Source of the DNA: a virus
Lineage: Duplodnaviria; Heunggongvirae; Uroviricota; Caudoviricetes
IMG/VR virus record: IMGVR_UViG_3300029107_000009
Location: 1 to 8,951 of that record
Length of the DNA: 8,951 nt
Direction: 5' to 3' (one strand)
The notes under the pieces were generated by a model, which worked only from the letters and a program-made list of their open reading frames with translations, searched no databases and was not told the DNA's origin. Shown piece after piece: positions 1,989-8,951 of the stretch; within the stretch, counting starts at the first letter, position 1; each line of letters opens with the position of its first letter. Made by a program: the position numbers and the translations under genes.

Positions 1989-2002
1989 GCGGGTGCTTGA
2001 GG
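1989..2002 (+). promoter_or_regulatory. Upstream complementary box of the hok mRNA (fold-back inhibition element, 5' partner)
   Basis: GCGGGTGCTTGAGG (1989-2002) can pair antiparallel with CCTCAACGCACCCGC (2365-2379) just before the 3' terminator: 14 bp with a one-nucleotide bulge. Confidence 0.5.
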
Positions 2003-2037
2003 CTATCTGCCTCGGGCATGAACACCAACGGCAGATA

Positions 2038-2111
2038 GAGAAAAGCCCCAGTTAACATTACGCGTCCTGCAAGACGCTTAACATTAATCTGAGGCCCAAT
2101 CTATGCTTCAC
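2038..2111 (-). ncRNA. Candidate Sok-like antisense RNA (boundaries approximate)
   Basis: Minus-strand -35 TTGCCT (forward 2141-2146) and -10 TAACCT (forward 2118-2123) with a 17-nt spacer. The transcript would be antisense to the mok start codon (2103) and its SD. On the minus strand an outer 7-bp stem (forward 2045-2051 with 2089-2095, one G-U pair that is a C-A mismatch on the plus strand) encloses an inner hairpin (forward 2062-2077) and is followed by UUUUCUC. Confidence 0.3.
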
Positions 2112-2315
2112 AAACGTAGGTTAGCCTCTTACGTGCCGAAAGGCAAGGAGAAGCAGGCTATGAAGCAGCAAAAGGCGATGTTAATCGCCCTGATCGTCAT
2201 CTGTTTAACCGTCATAGTGACGGCACTGGTAACGAGGAAAGACCTCTGCGAGGTACGAATCCGAACCGGCCAGACGGAGGTCGCTGTCTTCACAGCTTAC
2301 GAACCTGAGGAGTAA
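2103..2315 (+). CDS. Mok-like ORF: in-frame 19-codon N-terminal extension of hok
   Basis: 70-aa ORF MLHKRRLASYVPKGKEKQA + Hok sequence, in frame with hokD as in chromosomal mok/hok annotations; GAGG lies 10 nt upstream of ATG 2103. Confidence 0.45.
   Translation: MLHKRRLASYVPKGKEKQAMKQQKAMLIALIVICLTVIVTALVTRKDLCEVRIRTGQTEVAVFTAYEPEE
2160..2315 (+). CDS. hokD: Hok-family type I toxin (HokD/RelF-like, 51 aa)
   Basis: Product MKQQKAMLIALIVICLTVIVTALVTRKDLCEVRIRTGQTEVAVFTAYEPEE matches the Hok/Gef family and my recollection of E. coli HokD (RelF). SD AAGGAG at 9 nt; N-terminal TM helix and conserved Cys. Confidence 0.9.
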   Translation: MKQQKAMLIALIVICLTVIVTALVTRKDLCEVRIRTGQTEVAVFTAYEPEE

Positions 2316-3142: not shown

Positions 3143-4192
3143 GTGAGGGTATTACTTCGACCTGTTCTGGTGCCGGAACTCGGGCTGGTGGTCCTTAAGC
3201 CAGGTCGTGAATCCATGCAGGTATTTCACAATCCCCGGGTGCTGGTGGCGCCTGAACCAAAAAGCATGCGCGCTCTGCCGTCAGGACCTGTTCCTGCTGT
3301 TAGCCAGCTGCTGGCAGAGGATAAAACATTACTGCCATTTTTCAGCGACGAACGAGTGATTCGTGCTGCTGGCGGCGCTGGTGCACTGTCTGACTGGCTG
3401 TTGCGCCATGTTAAATCCTGCCAGTGGCCACACGGCGACTATCACCACAGTGAAACCGTCATTCACCGTTATGGCGCTGGCGCGATGGTGTTGTGCTGGC
3501 ACTGCGACAACCAGCTGCGTGACCAGACATCCGAATCACTCGAGCAACTTGCTCATCAAAATCTGTCAGCATGGATGATTGACGTCATACGCCATGCAAT
3601 GAATGGCACGCAGGAGAGGGAGTTATCGCTGGCTGAATTATCCTGGTGGGCGGTCTGCAATCAAGTGGCGGACGCGCTTCCGGAGGCAGTATTACGTCGT
3701 TCTCTGGGGTTACGTGCGGAAAAAATCCGCTCAATGTACCGTGAAAGCGACATCGTACCGGGAGAGCAGACCGCCACCAGCATACTGAAGCAGCGCACAA
3801 AAAATCTTGCGCAGTTGCTTCACACCCACCAGCCACAGAACCCAGCACAGGAAAAGCAGGTGGTCAGCATTGCCGTTGATCCGGAGTCTCCGGAATCTTT
3901 CATGAGGCGACCTAAACGTCGCCGTTGGGTAAATGAGAAATATACGCGCTGGGTGAAGACACAGCCGTGTGCGTGTTGTGGTCAACCAGCCGACGATCCC
4001 CATCACCTGATTGGTCACGGTCAGGGAGGGATGGGAACAAAGGCCCACGATATTTTCACGCTACCGTTGTGCCGGGAACATCACAACGAACTTCATGCGG
4101 ATCCGCTGGCGTTCGAAGAAAAGCATGGTTCTCAGGTTGATTTAATTTTTCGTTTTCTTGATCACGCCTTTGCAACCGGCGTGCTTGGGTAA
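3143..4192 (+). CDS. ydfU: DUF968-family prophage protein (YdfU-like, 349 aa) with a C-terminal Cys/His-rich HNH-like motif
   Basis: GTG 3143 with GGAGG at 4 nt. The 349-aa length and the position upstream of Q match my recollection of Qin YdfU. The C-terminus contains CACCGQPADDPHHLIGHGQGG...LCREHHNELH. Confidence 0.75.
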   Translation: MRVLLRPVLVPELGLVVLKPGRESMQVFHNPRVLVAPEPKSMRALPSGPVPAVSQLLAEDKTLLPFFSDERVIRAAGGAGALSDWLLRHVKSCQWPHGDYHHSETVIHRYGAGAMVLCWHCDNQLRDQTSESLEQLAHQNLSAWMIDVIRHAMNGTQERELSLAELSWWAVCNQVADALPEAVLRRSLGLRAEKIRSMYRESDIVPGEQTATSILKQRTKNLAQLLHTHQPQNPAQEKQVVSIAVDPESPESFMRRPKRRRWVNEKYTRWVKTQPCACCGQPADDPHHLIGHGQGGMGTKAHDIFTLPLCREHHNELHADPLAFEEKHGSQVDLIFRFLDHAFATGVLG

Positions 4193-4204
4193 AAGAGGTT
4201 ACTG

Positions 4205-4564
4205 ATGCGTATAGAGTTTGTTTTGCCTTACCCGCCGACGGTGAATACCTACTGGCGACGTCATGGCAATACGTATTTCATCTCGGAGGCCGGAAAGCGT
4301 TATCGCCATGATGTGGCGCTAATTGTTCGCCAGCAGCGGTTGAAATTAAACCTGTCCGGAAGGCTGGCGATAAAGATTATTGCAGAGCCACCGGATAAGC
4401 GCCGTCGTGACCTGGACAATATCCTGAAAGCACCACTAGATGCGCTGACGCATGCCGGACTACTCATAGACGACGAGCAGTTTGATGAAATCAATATTGT
4501 GCGCGGTCAGCTCGTTCCTGGTGGGCGGCTGGGGATAAAAATCACAGAACTGGAGTGCGCATGA
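4205..4564 (+). CDS. rusA: RusA-type Holliday junction resolvase (119 aa)
   Basis: Product contains PDKRRRDLDN..LDALTHAG, closely resembling the RusA acidic catalytic-core motif (PDRRRRDLDN..FDALTKAG as I recall it). AAGAGG at 6 nt from ATG 4205. Confidence 0.85.
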   Translation: MRIEFVLPYPPTVNTYWRRHGNTYFISEAGKRYRHDVALIVRQQRLKLNLSGRLAIKIIAEPPDKRRRDLDNILKAPLDALTHAGLLIDDEQFDEINIVRGQLVPGGRLGIKITELECA

Positions 4565-5250
4565 ATAACCAGTATTTACAGTTTGTGCGTGAGCAGCTCA
4601 TTATCGCCACCGCTGATTTGAGTGGGGCAACAAAAGGTCAGCTTGAAGCCTGGCAGGAGAATGCCATGTTCGATACAGGGCGTTACAGGCGAAAAAAAAT
4701 CCGGTACCGCGATGAAGTGACTGGAAAAATGATAACGCGGAATAATCAACCAATCCCGGGAAAGCAATCGCTGGCGAAGGGGACGTCAATTCCTCTGGTC
4801 AGTCCGGTTGAGTTTTCGACATCATCGTGGCGGCGGGCTGTTCTGTCTCTTGAAGAACATCATAAAGCCTGGTTGTTGTGGTGTTACAGCGGGAGTATTT
4901 GTTGGGAATATCAGATCGCTATAACACAGTGGGCGTGGAATGAATTTAATACTCAATCCGGTACCAGAAAAATTGCAGGGAAAACGCAGGAACGCCTGAA
5001 AAAATTAATCTGGCTGGCGGCGCAGGCAGTAAAAGCAGAACTTTTTGGTGGGGAAGGTTATGAATACCAGGATCTGGCATTACTGGCGGGAGTGACAACT
5101 AAAAACTGGTCCAAAACATTTACTCGTCACTGGGTTGCAATGAAACACATTTTTCAACGACTGGATAGTGAGGCTTTATTGTTTGTAATGAGAACACGTT
5201 CAAAACAAAAGGCGGCATTTTCAAAGCAAAATGTTGCAAAAGTAGATTGA
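4561..5250 (+). CDS. Putative late-gene antiterminator Q-like protein (229 aa from ATG 4561)
   Basis: ATG 4561 overlaps the rusA stop (ATGA) with GGAG at 5 nt. Lies immediately upstream of a strong promoter plus terminator and the lysis genes, which is the canonical Q position. Assignment is positional; no Q family motif recognised with certainty. Confidence 0.55.
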   Translation: MNNQYLQFVREQLIIATADLSGATKGQLEAWQENAMFDTGRYRRKKIRYRDEVTGKMITRNNQPIPGKQSLAKGTSIPLVSPVEFSTSSWRRAVLSLEEHHKAWLLWCYSGSICWEYQIAITQWAWNEFNTQSGTRKIAGKTQERLKKLIWLAAQAVKAELFGGEGYEYQDLALLAGVTTKNWSKTFTRHWVAMKHIFQRLDSEALLFVMRTRSKQKAAFSKQNVAKVD

Positions 5251-5262
5251 AAGGCATATATT
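5234..5262 (+). promoter_or_regulatory. Candidate late promoter (PR-prime-like), overlapping the 3' end of the Q gene
   Basis: -35 TTGCAA (5234-5239), 17-nt spacer, -10 TATATT (5257-5262). Confidence 0.5.
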
Positions 5263-5316
5263 TCATGCAAATCTGATATTTTGCCGATTTTGTACGTGAT
5301 GGCAAAAGCAAACAAA

Positions 5317-5340
5317 ACCCGCCCACAAGCGGGTTTTTTT
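5317..5340 (+). terminator. Rho-independent terminator (tR-prime-like) about 70 nt downstream of the late promoter
   Basis: ACCCGC-CCACAA-GCGGGT stem-loop followed by TTTTTTT. Confidence 0.75.
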
Positions 5341-5422
5341 GTGCCACTTATCTCGGATAGACATGGTGAATGCGCTGGTGGAGGAAGTAAGGGTGATTTT
5401 TAACCAGGTGATTTTTGAATGC

Positions 5423-5451
5423 TTGCAACATTGATTTCGTAACGTTATTAT
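5423..5451 (+). promoter_or_regulatory. Candidate promoter of the tRNA cluster
   Basis: -35 TTGCAA (5423-5428), 17-nt spacer, -10 TATTAT (5446-5451); AT-rich upstream region; the first tRNA begins 10 nt after the -10. Confidence 0.45.
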
Positions 5452-5460
5452 CCTGCGCCC

Positions 5461-5536
5461 GGCCCTTTAGCTCAGTGGTGAGAGCGAGCGACTCATAATC
5501 GCCAGGTCGCTGGTTCAAATCCAGCAAGGGCCACCA
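5461..5536 (+). tRNA. tRNA with CAU anticodon, ileX/ileZ-like (Ile2 type after lysidine modification, or elongator Met)
   Basis: 76 nt; acceptor GGCCCTT/AAGGGCC; D-arm GCTCAGTGGTGAGAGC; anticodon loop CTCATAA; T-loop TTCAAAT; encoded CCA. Resembles E. coli ileX from memory. Confidence 0.8.
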
Positions 5537-5537
5537 A

Positions 5538-5614
5538 CCGCCACTAGCTCATCAGGAAAGAGCGTCAACCCTTTAAGTTGAGTGTGCGAGGTTCGAGTCC
5601 CCGGTGGCGGTCCA
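5538..5614 (+). tRNA. tRNA-like gene with atypical anticodon loop CCTTTAA (anticodon UUU if canonically numbered, but C at position 33)
   Basis: 77 nt; acceptor CCGCCAC/GTGGCGG; anticodon stem TCAAC/GTTGA; T-loop TTCGAGT with one A-C mismatch in the T-stem; encoded CCA. Confidence 0.55.
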
Positions 5615-5616
5615 GT

Positions 5617-5692
<76 letters not shown>

Positions 5693-5695
5693 TAT

Positions 5696-5770
<75 letters not shown>

Positions 5771-6129
5771 GAGAAACAAGCCTTATTGTATTGCGGCACT
5801 GGCGTATTTTTTTATTACGTGGGAGCAGGTTGTTTTGAAAAAGCATTCTGTTCTCTGGCTATGATTTGAGGCCGGGTGTAGCCTCAGTGCTGATTTTTTT
5901 ACGGCAGCAGAATGGTGCATTATCGGTGGAGGTTTTGTATTTCCTGGCAGGGTCGGTGATGCATCATTCTGGTGTTGTAAAAGCACCGCAGAGGCGTTCC
6001 TCAGTACGAGGGTGGTTTAAAGAGTCGGTTTAGCGGGAAACCACAGTGTCCATACAGAACGGAATACTTCGGGAGGCACCCGACGCCTCGATTATATTAC
6101 AATTAAAAATTCATCCCTTGCATTGACCA

Positions 6130-6155
6130 ACCGCCATATCTGGCGGTTTTTTTTT
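6130..6155 (+). terminator. Strong rho-independent terminator in the non-coding gap
   Basis: ACCGCCA-TATC-TGGCGGT followed by nine T residues. Confidence 0.8.
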
Positions 6156-6400
6156 ATTCCTTTCTCAGAACAAAAAAAGACACGAGCATCCAGGAATACT
6201 CGTGGGACAACGTCCTTTGGATAGCAATTTGCGAGAGGGTGAAAAGTAGCGCGGTCGTCGGATTAAGACCGCGGGACAAAGTCCATGAAGAATAATAAGT
6301 ATTGGCCCCCTTCCGGGGACATGTTCATACTACTAAGCTTCAGAAGTGGTTTAAATACTCAAATTAACCTTAATTTCCGATAAGTCTTATTTCATTTCTT

Positions 6401-6503
6401 TGCGCCACATCTGGCGCGCATCAAATAACGCCACGCAAAGGGCATCTGCGGATGCCGGTGCTTTTGACGGGGTGTTTTTACGGGCCGCTGGTGGCCCTTT
6501 TTT
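6401..6503 (+). promoter_or_regulatory. Structured leader upstream of the holin gene: three consecutive GC hairpins, the last followed by a T-tract
   Basis: Hairpins TGCGCCA-CATC-TGGCGCG (6401-6418), GGCATC-TGCG-GATGCC (6441-6456) and GGGCC-GCTGGT-GGCCC + TTTTTT (6482-6503), directly before the holin RBS. Confidence 0.4.
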
Positions 6504-6522
6504 ATTTACAGGAGAAAAAAGT

Positions 6523-6915
6523 ATGTCTGAACCCTTATCCGGTTCCGGCACGGCTGCGGCGCTCGGTGGGGCGACGGTGTACGGGCTGTTTACCGGAACG
6601 GATTTCGGGATTGTGTTTGGTGCGTTCGCCGGGGCGTTATTTGTGGCAACGATGCCGCAGGCGCTTTCAGCCTGGCGTGTGGCAGCACATTTTCTGGTGT
6701 CGTTCATTATCGGCGTTCTGGGCGCAGAAGTTCTGGCATCCTGGCTGGTAAAGCATACAGGGTTTGACGGTGCACCTGTCGACGCATTGTGTGCAGTACT
6801 GGTGTCAGTGGTGTCGGTGAAGATTCTCTCGTTCATCCACCAGCAGGATATAGCATCACTGGTGTCCGGTCTGTTCTCCCGCCTGCGGGGCGGAGGAGGC
6901 GGCAATGTTAAGTAA
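6523..6915 (+). CDS. Putative holin (130 aa, multi-TM membrane protein)
   Basis: ATG 6523 with AGGAG at 8 nt. Product has several Gly/Ala-rich hydrophobic segments and a charged C-terminus; first gene of a three-gene lysis cassette. Confidence 0.65.
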   Translation: MSEPLSGSGTAAALGGATVYGLFTGTDFGIVFGAFAGALFVATMPQALSAWRVAAHFLVSFIIGVLGAEVLASWLVKHTGFDGAPVDALCAVLVSVVSVKILSFIHQQDIASLVSGLFSRLRGGGGGNVK

Positions 6916-7560: not shown

Positions 7561-7572
7561 GCAAAACAAAAC

Positions 7573-7600
7573 CCCCGCAGCTGGAACAGTCCGGGGTTTT
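7573..7600 (+). terminator. Probable terminator after the endolysin gene
   Basis: CCCCG...CGGGG stem with a 14-nt loop followed by TTTT; weaker than the other terminators in the window. Confidence 0.4.
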
Positions 7601-7831
7601 TAGTTTTCACGCCATGAAAAGGAACAATAAGTTGCAAAACAGCATGAGGTGAGGAAATTGTGAACAGTGAGTACGGGGAAAATCCTCGTGGGAAAGTATA
7701 AAAGATTCTTTTTGAGGTTGTCCATTATGAAAGGTATTGAAGTGGAAACTCCCGCGAGCCTTGATTTGACAAGGGCTGCGGCCTTTGCATGGCGGTCGCT
7801 GTTCTGATTTGGGCTGTGCGTTGGTGGTGAC

Positions 7832-8014
7832 ATGAGCAGAAAACACTGGACACACAGAATGCCTCGAGCGGCGGCGAAAAGGGCACTGGTAGCGATACTG
7901 GTGCCTTTTTTATTGGTGGGCTGCGTTAGCCTGGATAAGGCGCGCCAACTTTTAGATACAGCTTCTCAGGTCTGCAAAATTGTCGACAGTGTCCAGCAGT
8001 GTATGCAGAACTGA
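7832..8014 (+). CDS. Small lipoprotein (60 aa precursor; lipobox LVGC; 30-aa mature peptide with three Cys)
   Basis: ATG 7832; basic N-terminus, hydrophobic stretch LVAILVPFLLVG, then Cys: a signal peptidase II-type pattern. No overlapping Rz-like ORF. Confidence 0.5.
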   Translation: MSRKHWTHRMPRAAAKRALVAILVPFLLVGCVSLDKARQLLDTASQVCKIVDSVQQCMQN

Positions 8015-8791: not shown

Positions 8792-8851
8792 GGGGCGGGT
8801 CAAATCCCTGTGACCTGACGTCTTCCGGACTGCCCGCCCCATCGTTTTTTT
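8792..8851 (+). repeat. GC-rich inverted repeat (GGGGCGGG ... CCCGCCCC) followed by a T-tract; candidate cos/packaging element or terminator
   Basis: 8-bp perfect inverted repeat (8792-8799 with 8833-8840) separated by 33 bp, then ATCGTTTTTTT; lies between the HNH and terminase genes. Confidence 0.4.
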
Positions 8852-8890
8852 ATACCCGCGAAAAATGAAATTTAACCAGGAGTGCCGCAT

Positions 8891-8951
8891 ATGGCTGGAA
8901 CGGCGGGGCGTTCCGGGCGTCGCCCCAAGCCAACGGCGCGCAAGGCGCTGG
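8891..8951 (+). CDS. Terminase small subunit, N-terminal fragment (runs off the window)
   Basis: ATG 8891 with AGGAG at 8 nt; N-terminus MAGTAGRSGRRPKPTARKAL is typical of P27-family small terminase subunits; follows the HNH gene. Confidence 0.7.
   Translation, partial: MAGTAGRSGRRPKPTARKAL

What the first reader, a model, noticed from the sequence alone, without database searches (positions are those of the whole stretch)
5771..6522. 750-bp structured non-coding gap at the position where Stx phages carry stx
There is no plausible ORF on either strand between the tRNAs and the holin. The region contains a very strong terminator (6130-6155), a second copy of the same hairpin motif about 270 bp downstream (CGCCA-YATC-TGGCG at 6131-6146 and 6403-6416), two GAGGC-N7/8-GCCTC hairpins (5868-5885 and 6074-6088), and a run of three GC hairpins directly before the holin RBS. 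Possible explanations are a long tRNA-operon trailer processed into small RNAs, an sRNA moron, attenuator-like control of late-gene entry, or the scar of a lost cargo gene.
Basis: seen in the sequence. Interest (0 to 1): 0.5.

Follow-up and report, generated by a model that had tools for sequence, protein, structure and literature searches.

The report
Convergent small-RNA genes before phage holin
The 750-base "empty" stretch between the phage tRNA genes and the lysis genes holds two facing small-RNA genes plus stop signals, an arrangement known from Shiga-toxin phages, and one of the two RNAs appears undescribed.

Summary
Window 5771-6522 has no credible ORF and is more structured than chance. 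It is conserved in about 8% of complete E. coli genomes, next to different Q and holin types.

It is three independent modules, not a scar.

**A (5771-6157, + strand).** The tRNA-operon trailer is followed by a ~30-bp hairpin that only pairs well on the + strand. Then comes a domain with the topology and core motif (CGGGAGGCACCCG) of STnc100/PasD, the sRNA found just downstream of stx2 in Stx phages. The match is below Rfam's threshold but reciprocal. The module ends in the strong terminator.

**B (6322-6172, minus strand).** This is a ~150-nt sRNA gene with its own conserved promoter, five covarying helices and an intrinsic terminator facing A's. It has no Rfam family and no detectable similarity to PasA or PasC. 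Rfam's AsxR, AgvB and Esr41 models do not match it either.

**C (6395-6522, + strand).** This is a terminator-bearing leader kept in front of two unrelated holin types.

The layout matches the "convergent sRNA pair at the PR' moron site" of Tree et al. 2014. Structure, strand and modularity are shown. Expression, Hfq dependence, RNase III processing and targets are inferred. Verdict: a new variant of a known kind, of moderate interest.

The parts
5234..5343 (+). Context: PR'-like late promoter (TTGCAA-17-TATATT, 5234-5262) at the end of the Q gene, and the first intrinsic terminator (CCCGC-CCACAA-GCGGG plus T7, about 5318-5343). This is the Q-antitermination entry point.
   Evidence: Promoter scan; Q is Pfam PF06323 at 1.9e-91; sequence read directly. 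The role is inferred by analogy with lambda PR'/tR'.
5423..5770 (+). Context: tRNA promoter (TTGCAA-17-TATTAT, followed by the GC-rich stretch CCTGCGCCC) and four tRNA genes: CAT (ileZ-like), Lys, Thr and Gly.
   Evidence: ARAGORN, Rfam tRNA hits, promoter scan.
5771..5895 (+). Block A1: the tRNA-Gly 3' trailer domain. It is closed by GCACUG (5796-5801) paired with CAGUGC (5885-5890), contains the GAGGC hairpin at 5868-5885, and is followed by a U7 run.
   Evidence: Fold; GCACTG...CAGTGC plus the T-run is kept in both sequence variants of this segment. Block A follows tRNA-Gly in 120 of 123 assessable copies.
5896..5983 (+). Block A2: a long hairpin of 34 pairs, with an apical part that is almost invariant among the E. 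coli prophage copies (about 5927-5953). It is a candidate RNase III processing site.
   Evidence: Inverted repeat I1; z = -8.2. In alignment A5, 98.5% of cells are paired against 33-56% in slid controls. About 160 of 748 cells are G-U pairs that would be A-C mismatches on the other strand. The hairpin is kept with compensatory changes in the 70%-identical plasmid copy and in L181.
5984..6157 (+). Block A3: the STnc100/PasD-like sRNA domain. A closing stem (5991-5996 with 6084-6089) surrounds four hairpins, including UCGGG-AGGCA-CCCGA at 6069-6083. An AU-rich linker follows, then the intrinsic terminator at 6129-6148 plus U9.
   Evidence: Rfam RF02076 gives a full-length match at 19.1 bits, below the gathering score of 47. 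Covarying consensus structure. In the reciprocal search with model R1, the top non-self hits were true STnc100 (35 bits, E = 7e-7), PasD2 (E = 0.011) and PasD1 (E = 0.054). Terminator scan.
6172..6322 (-). Block B: the minus-strand sRNA ("sRNA-B").

- hairpin 1 at 6320-6305
- conserved single-stranded stretch CAAUACUUAUUAUUCUUCAUG at 6304-6284
- small hairpin at 6284-6274
- hairpin 2 at 6273-6250, followed by a U-run
- a variable 3' module
- terminator at 6204-6181 plus U7 at 6178-6172
   Evidence: Terminator scan; z = -4.2. Alignment A3 has five helices, 96.7% of cells paired (0 of 500 shuffles reach this), 61 double-change cells against 24 expected, and slid controls at 33-47%. About 56 G-U cells favour the minus strand. 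The opposite-strand ORF is frameshifted in many copies. Model R2 scores 171 bits here and 165 bits in E. ruysiae.
6323..6400 (-). Promoter of sRNA-B: -10 TAGTAT (6332-6327), -35 TTTAAA (6355-6350), and an AT-rich upstream stretch reaching about 6400.
   Evidence: TTTAAACCA and TAnTAT are invariant across 14 loci that include both alleles of the 3' module and across the 33 cluster representatives listed from 73 unique copies. The transcription start near 6322 is inferred from spacing.
6395..6522 (+). Block C: the holin leader. It has hairpin 6402-6417, hairpin 6441-6456 (plus GGUGCUUUUG), terminator 6482-6497 plus U6, and then the RBS GGAG followed by ATG at 6523.
   Evidence: Terminator scan. 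Alignment A6 shows the C3 terminator nearly invariant, found upstream of both the P27-type holin and the lambda-S/essD-type holin. The variants GGCAUC/GGUGCC and GGUAUC/GGUGCC pair only on the + strand. It follows sRNA-B in 109 of 124 assessable copies.

Best explanation
The gap is a mosaic of three non-coding modules at the cargo ("moron") site downstream of the Q-dependent late promoter of a lambdoid prophage.

**Module A (+ strand).** It is transcribed as the 3' continuation of the phage tRNA operon, and from PR' during induction. It has a structured trailer, a ~30-bp hairpin and an STnc100/PasD-type sRNA domain that ends at a strong intrinsic terminator. I infer that RNase P/E processing of tRNA-Gly, and RNase III cleavage in the long hairpin, release a ~170-260-nt terminator-ended sRNA. 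That sRNA would act in trans like its relatives: PasD is an Hfq-bound, base-pairing sRNA, and EcOnc27, the Hfq-bound sRNA that overlaps STnc100 downstream of stx2B, is another such case.

**Module B (minus strand).** It is a free-standing sRNA gene with its own sigma-70 promoter. It has a 5' hairpin, a conserved U/C-rich single-stranded stretch, a GC hairpin plus U-run, an exchangeable 3' module and an intrinsic terminator. It converges on module A, so the two terminators sit back to back. It most likely makes an Hfq-type regulatory RNA in the lysogen. It is also perfectly antisense to any late transcript that reads toward the holin.

**Module C (+ strand).** It is a leader with two terminator hairpins directly before the holin RBS. 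Together with the terminators of A, these block transcripts from the constitutive tRNA promoter. Only Q-modified polymerase would reach the lysis genes.

**Shown:** the structures, their strands, the conservation, the modularity, the lack of coding capacity, and the distant homology of A to STnc100.

**Inferred:** transcription, processing, Hfq binding, targets, and the insulation role.
For: **Conservation.**

- The gap is found in 424 of 5426 complete E. coli genomes.
- It occurs next to a different Q (DUF1133) and a different holin (essD).

**Modularity.**

- SerU-LTIIb copy 2 and locus L009 lack B.
- A and B occur together 82 times, A alone 41 times and B alone 38 times.
- In L014, B sits upstream of a tRNA.

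**RNA structure and strand.** Covariation and G-U evidence hold for all three structured parts.

**Coding rejected**.

**STnc100 relationship.**

- Rfam gives a full-length sub-threshold hit that shares CGGGAGGCACCCG and the closing-stem topology.
- The reciprocal covariance-model search recovers STnc100, PasD2 and PasD1 as the three best non-self hits in 38 kb.

**Known precedent.**

- Convergent sRNA pairs lie 3' of PR' in O157 prophages (Tree 2014, PMC4104026).
- STnc100 lies 75 nt downstream of stx2, and an Hfq-bound sRNA, EcOnc27, partially overlaps it (PMC12370729 and PMC12711010). I confirmed STnc100 in phiSTEC1575-Stx2k at 64.9 bits.
- PasA, PasC and PasD1 lie directly beside the holin/lysozyme operon (bioRxiv 10.64898/2026.05.13.724894). 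PasA and PasC are on the minus strand in E2348/69, opposite to the holins there (PMC8550237 supplement).

**Selection outside phage context.** The hairpin plus STnc100-like unit is kept at ~70% identity on 161 plasmids, most of them conjugative; the one inspected, pVir68, is IncF.
Against: - There is no expression data for this locus. Promoters, the start site and processing are predicted only.
- The STnc100 match (19.1 bits) is far below Rfam's gathering score of 47. The covariance-model E-values are roughly calibrated.
- The alignments come from closely related Escherichia prophages (about 78-97% identical). Part of the "covariation" is a few allele swaps inherited by many sequences. The measure "pairs with a change on both sides" does not exceed the shuffles (221 of 500, 58 of 500 and 90 of 500).
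- The apparent invariance of the hairpin loop among IMG/VR copies is partly imposed by the search pattern I used.
- No target was found for sRNA-B inside the window beyond its own antisense partner.
- The terminator series could be the only functional aspect of modules A and C.
Confidence: 0.72

Rival explanations
1. The conserved hairpins work only in cis on the late transcript. They would be a terminator barrier plus RNase III/RNase E processing sites that set Q-dependence, timing and stability of the holin mRNA. No trans-acting sRNAs would be made.
For: - Seven terminator-like sites in 1.4 kb against 1.7 expected.
- The C3 terminator is almost invariant and always directly before the holin RBS.
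- The long hairpin is a textbook double-stranded substrate.
- No trans target was found in the window.
Against: - Module B has its own conserved promoter, and its terminator points away from the holin.
- Module A's hairpin plus STnc100-like unit survives on plasmids with no holin downstream.
- The relatives PasD and EcOnc27 are Hfq-bound sRNAs.
- A and B are gained and lost independently of C.
Confidence: 0.15
2. The gap encodes small proteins: the 32-aa + strand ORF at 6285-6383 (MKNNKYWPPSGDMFILLSFRSGLNTQINLNFR), a peptide starting at GTG 5887, or both. Several genome annotations imply this.
For: - The 32-aa ORF keeps its length and an ATG/GTG start in both main alleles.
- Relatives carry annotated "hypothetical proteins" here.
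Against: - Roughly a fifth of the copies have the 32-aa ORF truncated to 16-19 aa, including by 1-nt indels in the hairpin loop that preserve the RNA helix.
- There is no Shine-Dalgarno sequence, and most substitutions change the amino acid.
- The annotated ORFs run straight through the terminator U-runs and end at different places.
- The GTG-5887 ORF has a stop at 6031 in the window and an insertion in the commonest variant.
- No Pfam match.
Confidence: 0.04
3. The gap is the decayed remnant of a lost cargo gene such as stx, nanS-p esterase or TerB/DUF3927. The hairpins would be leftover terminators.
For: - The site is the known cargo position.
- Some relatives carry TerB plus DUF3927 between B and C.
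- The C block abuts DUF3927 in STEC strains.
Against: - Nothing in the gap matches stx or its flanks in 50,697 phage records in distant mode.
- The gap ORFs match no Pfam family.
- The CDS-free A-B-C order is the commonest state.
- All three blocks show strand-specific RNA-structure conservation, which a decaying remnant would not keep.
Confidence: 0.04
4. The conserved blocks are DNA-level elements. They would be boundary sequences that promote homologous exchange of lambdoid modules, or hairpins acting in single-stranded DNA, and would not be RNA genes.
For: - There is strong mosaicism with sharp module borders.
- A copy is present on conjugative plasmids, which transfer as single strands.
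Against: - G-U wobble pairs make up about 21% of cells in the long hairpin and about 8% in sRNA-B. They make the helices good on one strand only, which points to RNA.
- Intrinsic-terminator U-runs and a conserved promoter fit transcription units.
Confidence: 0.03

Closest known systems
Convergent sRNA pairs at the PR' "moron" site of lambdoid prophages (Tree et al. 2014, Mol Cell; EcOnc27 with AsxR/EcOnc02 downstream of stx2B in Sp5; AgvB in Sp10/Sp17)
   Same: - The position is the same: after Q/PR' and any tRNAs, before the lysis genes.
- One sRNA lies on the late-transcript strand and one converges on it, with back-to-back intrinsic terminators.
- The sense partner belongs to the STnc100 lineage.
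   Different: - No cargo CDS lies between the tRNAs and the pair.
- The antisense partner is ~150 nt (or ~75 nt) and is not matched by the AsxR or AgvB Rfam models. The published anti-sRNAs are 51-60 nt with a shared 42-nt 3' region.
- The sense partner is fused to a tRNA operon through a long hairpin.
STnc100 (Rfam RF02076) and PasD1/PasD2 (Pearl Mizrahi 2021; Zhu, Shabalina and Storz 2026)
   Same: - A ~190-nt + strand RNA with a closing stem around several hairpins.
- The last hairpin is YCGGG-AGGCA-CCCGR, followed by the 3' strand of the closing stem, an AU-rich linker and a terminator.
- The prophage location is between Q and the holin.
- The covariance-model hits are reciprocal.
   Different: - It scores 19 bits against a gathering score of 47, lower than PasD (38-41 bits).
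- blastn finds no similarity.
- The published PasD seed (UGUGAG) is not evident here.
- It is preceded by a tRNA trailer and long hairpin instead of DUF3927 or stx2B.
PasA/PasC and Esr41: sRNA genes in prophage regions near the holin. The two Pas genes lie on the opposite strand directly upstream of it.
   Same: - The position matches, and for PasA/PasC so does the orientation relative to the holin.
- All are terminator-ended and probably Hfq-type.
- All are part of the same recombining cassette region.
   Different: - There is no sequence or structure similarity. Model R2 finds nothing at the PasA or PasC sites, and only 4.9 bits (E = 6.8) at the Esr41-like site.
- The Rfam Esr41 model does not hit the window.
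- The length and fold differ.
tRNA 3' external transcribed spacer sRNAs (3'ETS-leuZ of glyW-cysT-leuZ; Lalaouna et al. 2015, recalled from my own knowledge), and the stable "species 1/2" RNAs in the phage T4 tRNA cluster
   Same: A functional small RNA is made from the tail of a polycistronic tRNA transcript and ends at the operon's intrinsic terminator.
   Different: - The trailer here is ~390 nt and carries a recognisable prophage sRNA domain.
- Processing and sponge activity are untested.
Lambda OOP and anti-Q (paQ) antisense RNAs (recalled from my own knowledge)
   Same: A short constitutive antisense RNA converges on a key lytic transcript. It could trigger RNase III cleavage or transcriptional interference.
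   Different: - Those RNAs overlap coding regions (cII, Q). This one overlaps only the untranslated spacer upstream of the holin.
- There is no evidence here for any effect on lysis.

Membership tests
STnc100 (Rfam RF02076) / PasD | Scores at or above the Rfam gathering threshold (47 bits) | tested here: not met
   Window 5964-6159 scores 19.1 bits. For comparison, PasD2 scores 41.4 and PasD1 37.7 (also below threshold), true STnc100 in E2348/69 PP5 scores 123.6, and the Stx2k phage copy scores 64.9.
STnc100 (Rfam RF02076) / PasD | Consensus architecture: closing stem, internal hairpins, CCGGGAGGCACCCGG hairpin, 3' closing strand, linker, terminator | tested here: met
   The full-length model alignment shares CGGGAGGCACCCG and the terminator. 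An independent RNAalifold run on 21 relatives gives the same topology, with CG/UA covariation in the closing stem.
STnc100 (Rfam RF02076) / PasD | Reciprocal detectability: a model of the window's family finds STnc100 and PasD | tested here: met
   R1 over 38 kb with filters off gives L012 STnc100 at 35 bits (E = 7e-7), PasD2 at 17.1 bits (E = 0.011) and PasD1 at 14.2 bits (E = 0.054). These are the top three non-self hits. E-values are rough.
STnc100 (Rfam RF02076) / PasD | Hfq-dependent stable transcript | not testable with these tools
   Known for PasD (PMC8550237) and for EcOnc27. No data exist for this locus.
Convergent sRNA pair at the PR' moron site (Tree 2014) | Located downstream of Q/PR' and upstream of the lysis cassette | tested here: met
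   Q (PF06323) ends at 5250, the holin (PF16931) starts at 6523, and the pair lies at 5984-6322.
Convergent sRNA pair at the PR' moron site (Tree 2014) | Two sRNA genes on opposite strands converging on adjacent terminators | tested here: met
   The + terminator is at 6129-6148 plus U9 and the - terminator at 6204-6181 plus U7, with 32 bases between the two stems. Both RNAs are supported by strand-specific covariation.
Anti-sRNA family AsxR/AgvB (RF02703/RF02702) | 51-60 nt, with a conserved ~42-nt 3' region shared by EcOnc01-03 | tested here: not met
   No AsxR or AgvB hit appeared even at E <= 10 on either strand of 5200-6600. sRNA-B is about 150 nt.
PasA/PasC | Sequence and structure similarity to the 84-nt PasA/PasC consensus | tested here: not met
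   blastn finds nothing. The sRNA-B model R2 gives no hit at PasA (L010 about 5400-5480) or PasC (L012 about 2832-2884) at E <= 10.
Esr41 (RF02676) | Match to the Rfam model | tested here: not met
   No hit in the window at E <= 10. R2 scores only 4.9 bits at the Esr41-like site of E2348/69 PP4.
Intrinsic (Rho-independent) terminators | GC-rich stem-loop directly followed by a U-run | tested here: met
   Sites 6129-6148 plus T9, 6482-6497 plus T6 and 6204-6181 (-) plus T7. Termination activity itself was not tested.
RNase III processing hairpin | About two turns (20 bp or more) of near-continuous double-stranded RNA, cleaved by RNase III | tested here: inconclusive
   There are 28 stem pairs plus 6 apical pairs at 98.5% conservation, and a perfect 26-bp stem in L181. 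Cleavage is not testable here.

The most novel reading that the evidence does not exclude
sRNA-B founds an undescribed, Escherichia-restricted family of prophage sRNAs with a double role. In the lysogen it would act in trans through its invariant U/C-rich stretch, as an Hfq-dependent regulator or as an anti-sRNA. Being fully antisense to the spacer of the late transcript, it would also act in cis as a safety catch: pairing with leaky read-through RNA, triggering RNase III cleavage and preventing premature holin expression. In parallel, the tRNA operon's tail would be a dedicated delivery system, through the long hairpin, for an STnc100-type sRNA. That would make phage tRNA clusters sRNA launch pads.
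Probability: 0.2. Interest if true: 0.6.

Novelty: new variant of a known kind. Interest (0 to 1): 0.42.

Why it matters
The spacer between Q and the lysis genes of lambdoid prophages is where Shiga toxin and other cargo are carried. It is already known to hide Hfq-bound sRNAs that rewire host regulation (AsxR, AgvB, EcOnc27/STnc100, PasA-D).

This window shows three things:

- The same "convergent sRNA pair" design exists in toxin-free prophages of commensal and ETEC-type E. coli.
- The STnc100 lineage is broader than Rfam's threshold captures. It extends to a tRNA-linked form and to a copy on 161 plasmids, most of them conjugative.
- There is at least one further sRNA family at this hot spot, absent from Rfam 15 and currently mis-annotated as "hypothetical protein" in some genomes.

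It gives concrete, cheap experiments (northern blot, Term-seq, RIL-seq in a lysogen). It also gives a covariance model that could clean up annotation. It does not overturn any concept.

Tried and rejected
- **IpeX-like RNA of DLP12.** I compared the window with the K-12 quuD-nmpC-essD region. No similarity was found.
- **Primary-sequence homology to Pas loci of E2348/69.** blastn at word size 7 gave nothing significant. Only covariance models link block A to STnc100/PasD.
- **Protein coding.** I translated the annotated "hypothetical proteins" of relatives, tested ORF integrity over 126 copies and ran Pfam. Rejected.
The match is real, but the two hairpins vary independently in relatives. I treat it as coincidental similarity of two GC hairpins.
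- **A local GAGGC...GCCUC hairpin at 6073-6089.** Covariation supports the long-range closing stem instead.
- **In-window trans targets of the sRNA-B seed.** The best non-self duplexes (-16 to -17 kcal/mol) fall within the range of shuffled seeds (-15 to -23) (the first attempt timed out).
- **A partner for the invariant hairpin loop.** No complementary site was found in the window.
- **A promoter inside block A for the STnc100-like domain.** Reading the sequence directly, I found nothing convincing.
- **Literature search for the exact sequences.** No paper contains them.
- **A weak R2 hit in the K-12 DLP12 ybcV-ybcW spacer** (15.2 bits). The alignment is mostly a hairpin plus U-rich stretch, so I treat it as noise.
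- **Similarity of phiP27 to blocks A and B.** None was found; only the last ~95 nt (C3 terminator and RBS) is shared.
Full report
**Context**

The window is the late-regulatory and lysis region of a lambdoid prophage. In order it contains:

- hok/sok (Rfam sok, 113 bits)
- a DUF968 protein
- RusA
- a Q antiterminator (PF06323, 1.9e-91)
- four tRNA genes at 5461-5770
- the 752-base gap
- a P27-type holin (PF16931), a second holin (PF05449) and an M15 endolysin

A PR'-like promoter (5234-5262) and a first terminator (about 5318-5343) sit at the end of Q. A separate promoter, TTGCAA-17-TATTAT followed by a GC-rich stretch, precedes the tRNAs. No complete E. coli genome holds the whole window as one place. 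The best match covers 73% at 93% identity.

Yes. ORFs in the gap are 67 aa or shorter and match no Pfam family.

- The region has 7 terminator-like sites against 1.7 +/- 1.3 in shuffles.
- Folding z-scores are -4.7 for 5771-6160 (+), -4.2 for 6160-6345 (-) and -8.2 for the long hairpin.

**Conservation and modularity**

The gap is found in 424 of 5426 complete E. coli genomes, and 216 of them hold at least 80% of it. It sits next to unrelated Q proteins (DUF1133) and holins (essD). Alignment of ten copies (A1) splits it into three blocks:

- Block A, 5771 to about 6160
- Block B, about 6160-6395
- Block C, about 6395-6522

Block B is absent from locus L009 and from the second of two tandem copies in phage SerU-LTIIb.

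- A follows tRNA-Gly in 120 of 123 assessable copies.
- A and B occur together 82 times, A alone 41 times and B alone 38 times.
- B is followed by the C terminator in 109 of 124 cases, about 200 nt away in 97 of them.
- In ten cases the spacing is about 880 nt; in locus L015 a TerB plus DUF3927 insert lies between B and C.

The CDS-free layout is therefore the common state, not a relic.

**Block B is a minus-strand sRNA gene**

On the minus strand the alignment (A2; 73 unique copies) shows the following, in order:

- an AT-rich upstream region
- an invariant TTTAAACCA (-35) and TAnTAT (-10)
- a GC hairpin whose stem changes by compensation (CCCC/GGGG versus CUCC/GGAG)
- a conserved single-stranded stretch, CAAUACUUAUUAUUCUUCAUG
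- a small hairpin
- a second GC hairpin followed by a U-run (U4 in the window, U7-9 in other alleles)
- an exchangeable 3' module in three unrelated versions
- an intrinsic terminator

RNAalifold on 25 distinct sequences gives five helices.

- 96.7% of cells are paired, against 90.8% in shuffles (0 of 500 shuffles reach this).
- There are 61 double-change cells against 24 expected.
- Slid controls give 33-47% paired.
- About 56 G-U cells would be A-C mismatches on the + strand.

The only ORF that looked conserved is the 32-aa + strand ORF at 6285-6383. It is truncated to 16-19 aa in roughly a fifth of the copies, including by 1-nt indels in the hairpin loop that keep the RNA helix. I conclude this is an sRNA gene running from about 6322 to 6172, with a possible ~75-nt short form.

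It has no Rfam match at E <= 10, which rules out the AsxR, AgvB and Esr41 models. A covariance model of it (R2) finds nothing at the PasA or PasC sites of E2348/69. Its core pattern occurs in only one of 185,579 species-representative genomes, Escherichia ruysiae. R2 scores 165 bits there.

**Block A is a + strand RNA continuous with the tRNA operon**

It has three parts.

*A1, 5771-5895.* This is a trailer domain closed by GCACUG/CAGUGC and followed by U7.

*A2, 5896-5983.* This is a 34-pair hairpin.

- In 22 distinct sequences, 98.5% of cells pair, against 33-56% when slid.
- 17 stem pairs vary on one side only while staying paired.
- About 21% of cells are G-U pairs, so the helix is good only on the + strand.
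- It persists with many compensatory changes in a 70%-identical plasmid copy.
- It is a perfect 26-bp stem in L181.
- Its apical part is nearly invariant among the E. coli prophage copies, for reasons I cannot explain.

*A3, 5984-6157.* This domain folds as a closing stem (5991-5996 with 6084-6089; CG 11, UA 10) around four hairpins. The last hairpin is UCGGG-AGGCA-CCCGA. An AU-rich linker and the strong terminator follow.

This is the topology of Rfam STnc100.

- The Rfam model aligns full length and shares CGGGAGGCACCCG, but at only 19.1 bits against a gathering score of 47.
- In the reciprocal direction, a model built from 21 relatives (R1) was run with filters off over 38 kb. Its three best non-self hits were the genuine STnc100 of E2348/69 PP5 (35 bits, E = 7e-7), PasD2 (E = 0.011) and PasD1 (E = 0.054).
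- PasD is itself sub-threshold to STnc100, at 38-41 bits.

I therefore file A3 as a distant relative of the STnc100/PasD lineage, not as a formal Rfam member. About a quarter of unique copies (17 of 73) replace A3 with a short ~95-nt variant that keeps a terminator.

**Block C**

Block C has three + strand hairpins. The last, GGGCCGCUGGUGGCCC plus U6, is nearly invariant and lies directly before the RBS of both holin types. G-U variants of the middle hairpin pair only on the + strand. The last ~95 nt are also found upstream of the holin of the Stx2e phage phiP27.

**Comparison with what is known**

- Tree et al. 2014 (PMC4104026) showed that O157 prophages carry convergent, Hfq-bound sRNA pairs at the moron site 3' of PR'. 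One example is EcOnc27 with the antisense AsxR downstream of stx2B.
- EcOnc27 overlaps STnc100 (PMC12711010).
- STnc100 lies 75 nt after stx2 (PMC12370729). I confirmed it in phiSTEC1575-Stx2k at 64.9 bits, directly after stx2B.
- Pearl Mizrahi 2021 and Zhu, Shabalina and Storz 2026 describe PasD (STnc100-like, + strand) in prophage regions and PasA, PasC and PasD1 directly beside the holin/lysozyme operon. PasA and PasC are on the minus strand in E2348/69, opposite to the holins there.

The window has the same design without a cargo CDS: tRNAs, an STnc100-like RNA, a convergent sRNA, a terminator leader and the holin.

It differs in three ways:

- the tRNA linkage through a long hairpin
- the strong divergence of the sense RNA
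- an antisense partner that belongs to none of the described families

The hairpin plus STnc100-like unit also occurs at ~70% identity on 161 plasmids, most of them conjugative. In the IncF plasmid pVir68 it lies beside a DMT transporter gene (R1 117.7 bits). This argues it is useful outside a phage lysis context.

**Mechanism**

*Shown:*

- strand-specific conserved RNA structures
- a conserved promoter and terminators
- independence of the three modules
- no coding capacity
- distant homology of A3 to STnc100

*Inferred, from established knowledge of Q antitermination, tRNA 3' processing, RNase III substrates and Hfq sRNAs:*

- In the lysogen, the tRNA promoter drives tRNAs plus module A up to the terminator at 6129-6157.
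- tRNA maturation and RNase III cleavage of the long hairpin release an STnc100-type sRNA.
- sRNA-B is made from its own promoter and stops at 6172.
- The stacked terminators (A, C2, C3) keep this constitutive transcription out of the holin.
- Only Q-modified polymerase from PR' reads through, and that transcript is then antisense-matched by sRNA-B.

Targets are unknown. No significant in-window target was found.

**Caveats**

- There is no expression evidence.
- All alignments are from closely related Escherichia elements, so several "compensatory" events are single allele swaps counted many times. The pair-count measures do not exceed the shuffles.
- IMG/VR copies were retrieved with patterns that enforce conservation of the hairpin loop and of the sRNA-B core.
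- Covariance-model E-values are roughly calibrated.

**Verdict**

The finding is real and is now largely explained. It is a new variant of a known kind: the convergent sRNA cassette at the PR' cargo site. It contains one apparently undescribed sRNA family and a divergent, tRNA-linked STnc100 relative. Interest is moderate.

Noticed in passing
window 1991-2315: A complete hok/sok type I toxin-antitoxin locus: Rfam sok at 113 bits, and a Hok-like ORF at 2103-2315.
   Followed up: no
window 5234-5343: The PR'-like promoter plus first terminator would give a ~70-nt short RNA, an analogue of lambda 6S or StxS. It has weak sub-threshold Rfam similarity to the Salmonella prophage sRNAs isrK and isrJ (E = 0.02-0.06).
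   Followed up: partly
window 5461-5614: The tRNA called Met(CAT) by ARAGORN is annotated tRNA-Ile in RefSeq relatives (ileZ-like). The second tRNA is Lys(TTT) here, with a low Rfam score of 44 bits, but Arg in L013. The first two tRNAs vary between relatives, whereas Thr-Gly travels with block A in most loci inspected.
   Followed up: partly
L001 (KU052038.1, phage SerU-LTIIb) 1117-2461 and 3026-4373: The LT-IIb enterotoxin phage has two tandem copies of tRNA-Thr/Gly, block A, block C and the holin. The second copy lacks sRNA-B, and the first holin copy is followed by only a fragment of holin 2.
   Followed up: partly
L007 2612-3010; L008 2613-2924 and 3023-3148; L009 2612-2872; L002 4192-4509 and 4617-4742: Annotated "hypothetical proteins" (WP_064226585.1, WP_001741616.1, WP_000904532.1, WP_001298832.1, URC09393.1, URC09394.1) overlie these RNA modules. 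Those on the + strand read through terminator U-runs. They look like annotation artefacts.
   Followed up: yes
L180 (pVir68, NC_012944.1) 3816-4290, and 160 other plasmids: 161 plasmids, most of them conjugative (146 Escherichia, 15 Salmonella), carry a ~70%-identical copy of the long hairpin plus STnc100-like domain plus terminator. In the IncF plasmid pVir68 it is preceded by a degenerate tRNA and followed, 18 nt later, by a DMT-family transporter gene.
   Followed up: partly
L015 1660-2454: The junction between sRNA-B and the holin leader is an insertion point. Here it holds TerB-family and DUF3927 genes. These are the same "PasA/PasC conserved genes" described by Zhu et al.
   Followed up: no
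L014 1501-1694: In strain FDAARGOS_1262 the sRNA-B module sits between Q and a tRNA-Ile, upstream of the tRNA and without block A. This shows it moves as an independent cassette.
   Followed up: no
L004 (K-12 DLP12) 8819-8923, minus strand: A weak hit of the sRNA-B model (15.2 bits) in the ybcV-ybcW spacer. The alignment is mainly a hairpin plus a U-rich stretch, so it is probably noise.
   Followed up: partly
window 7561-8014: No overlapping Rz/Rz1-type spanin pair follows the endolysin. After a terminator-like hairpin (about 7571-7597), a 60-aa ORF at 7832-8014 has a lipobox-like LLVGC. It could be a unimolecular spanin or a Bor-like lipoprotein.
   Followed up: no
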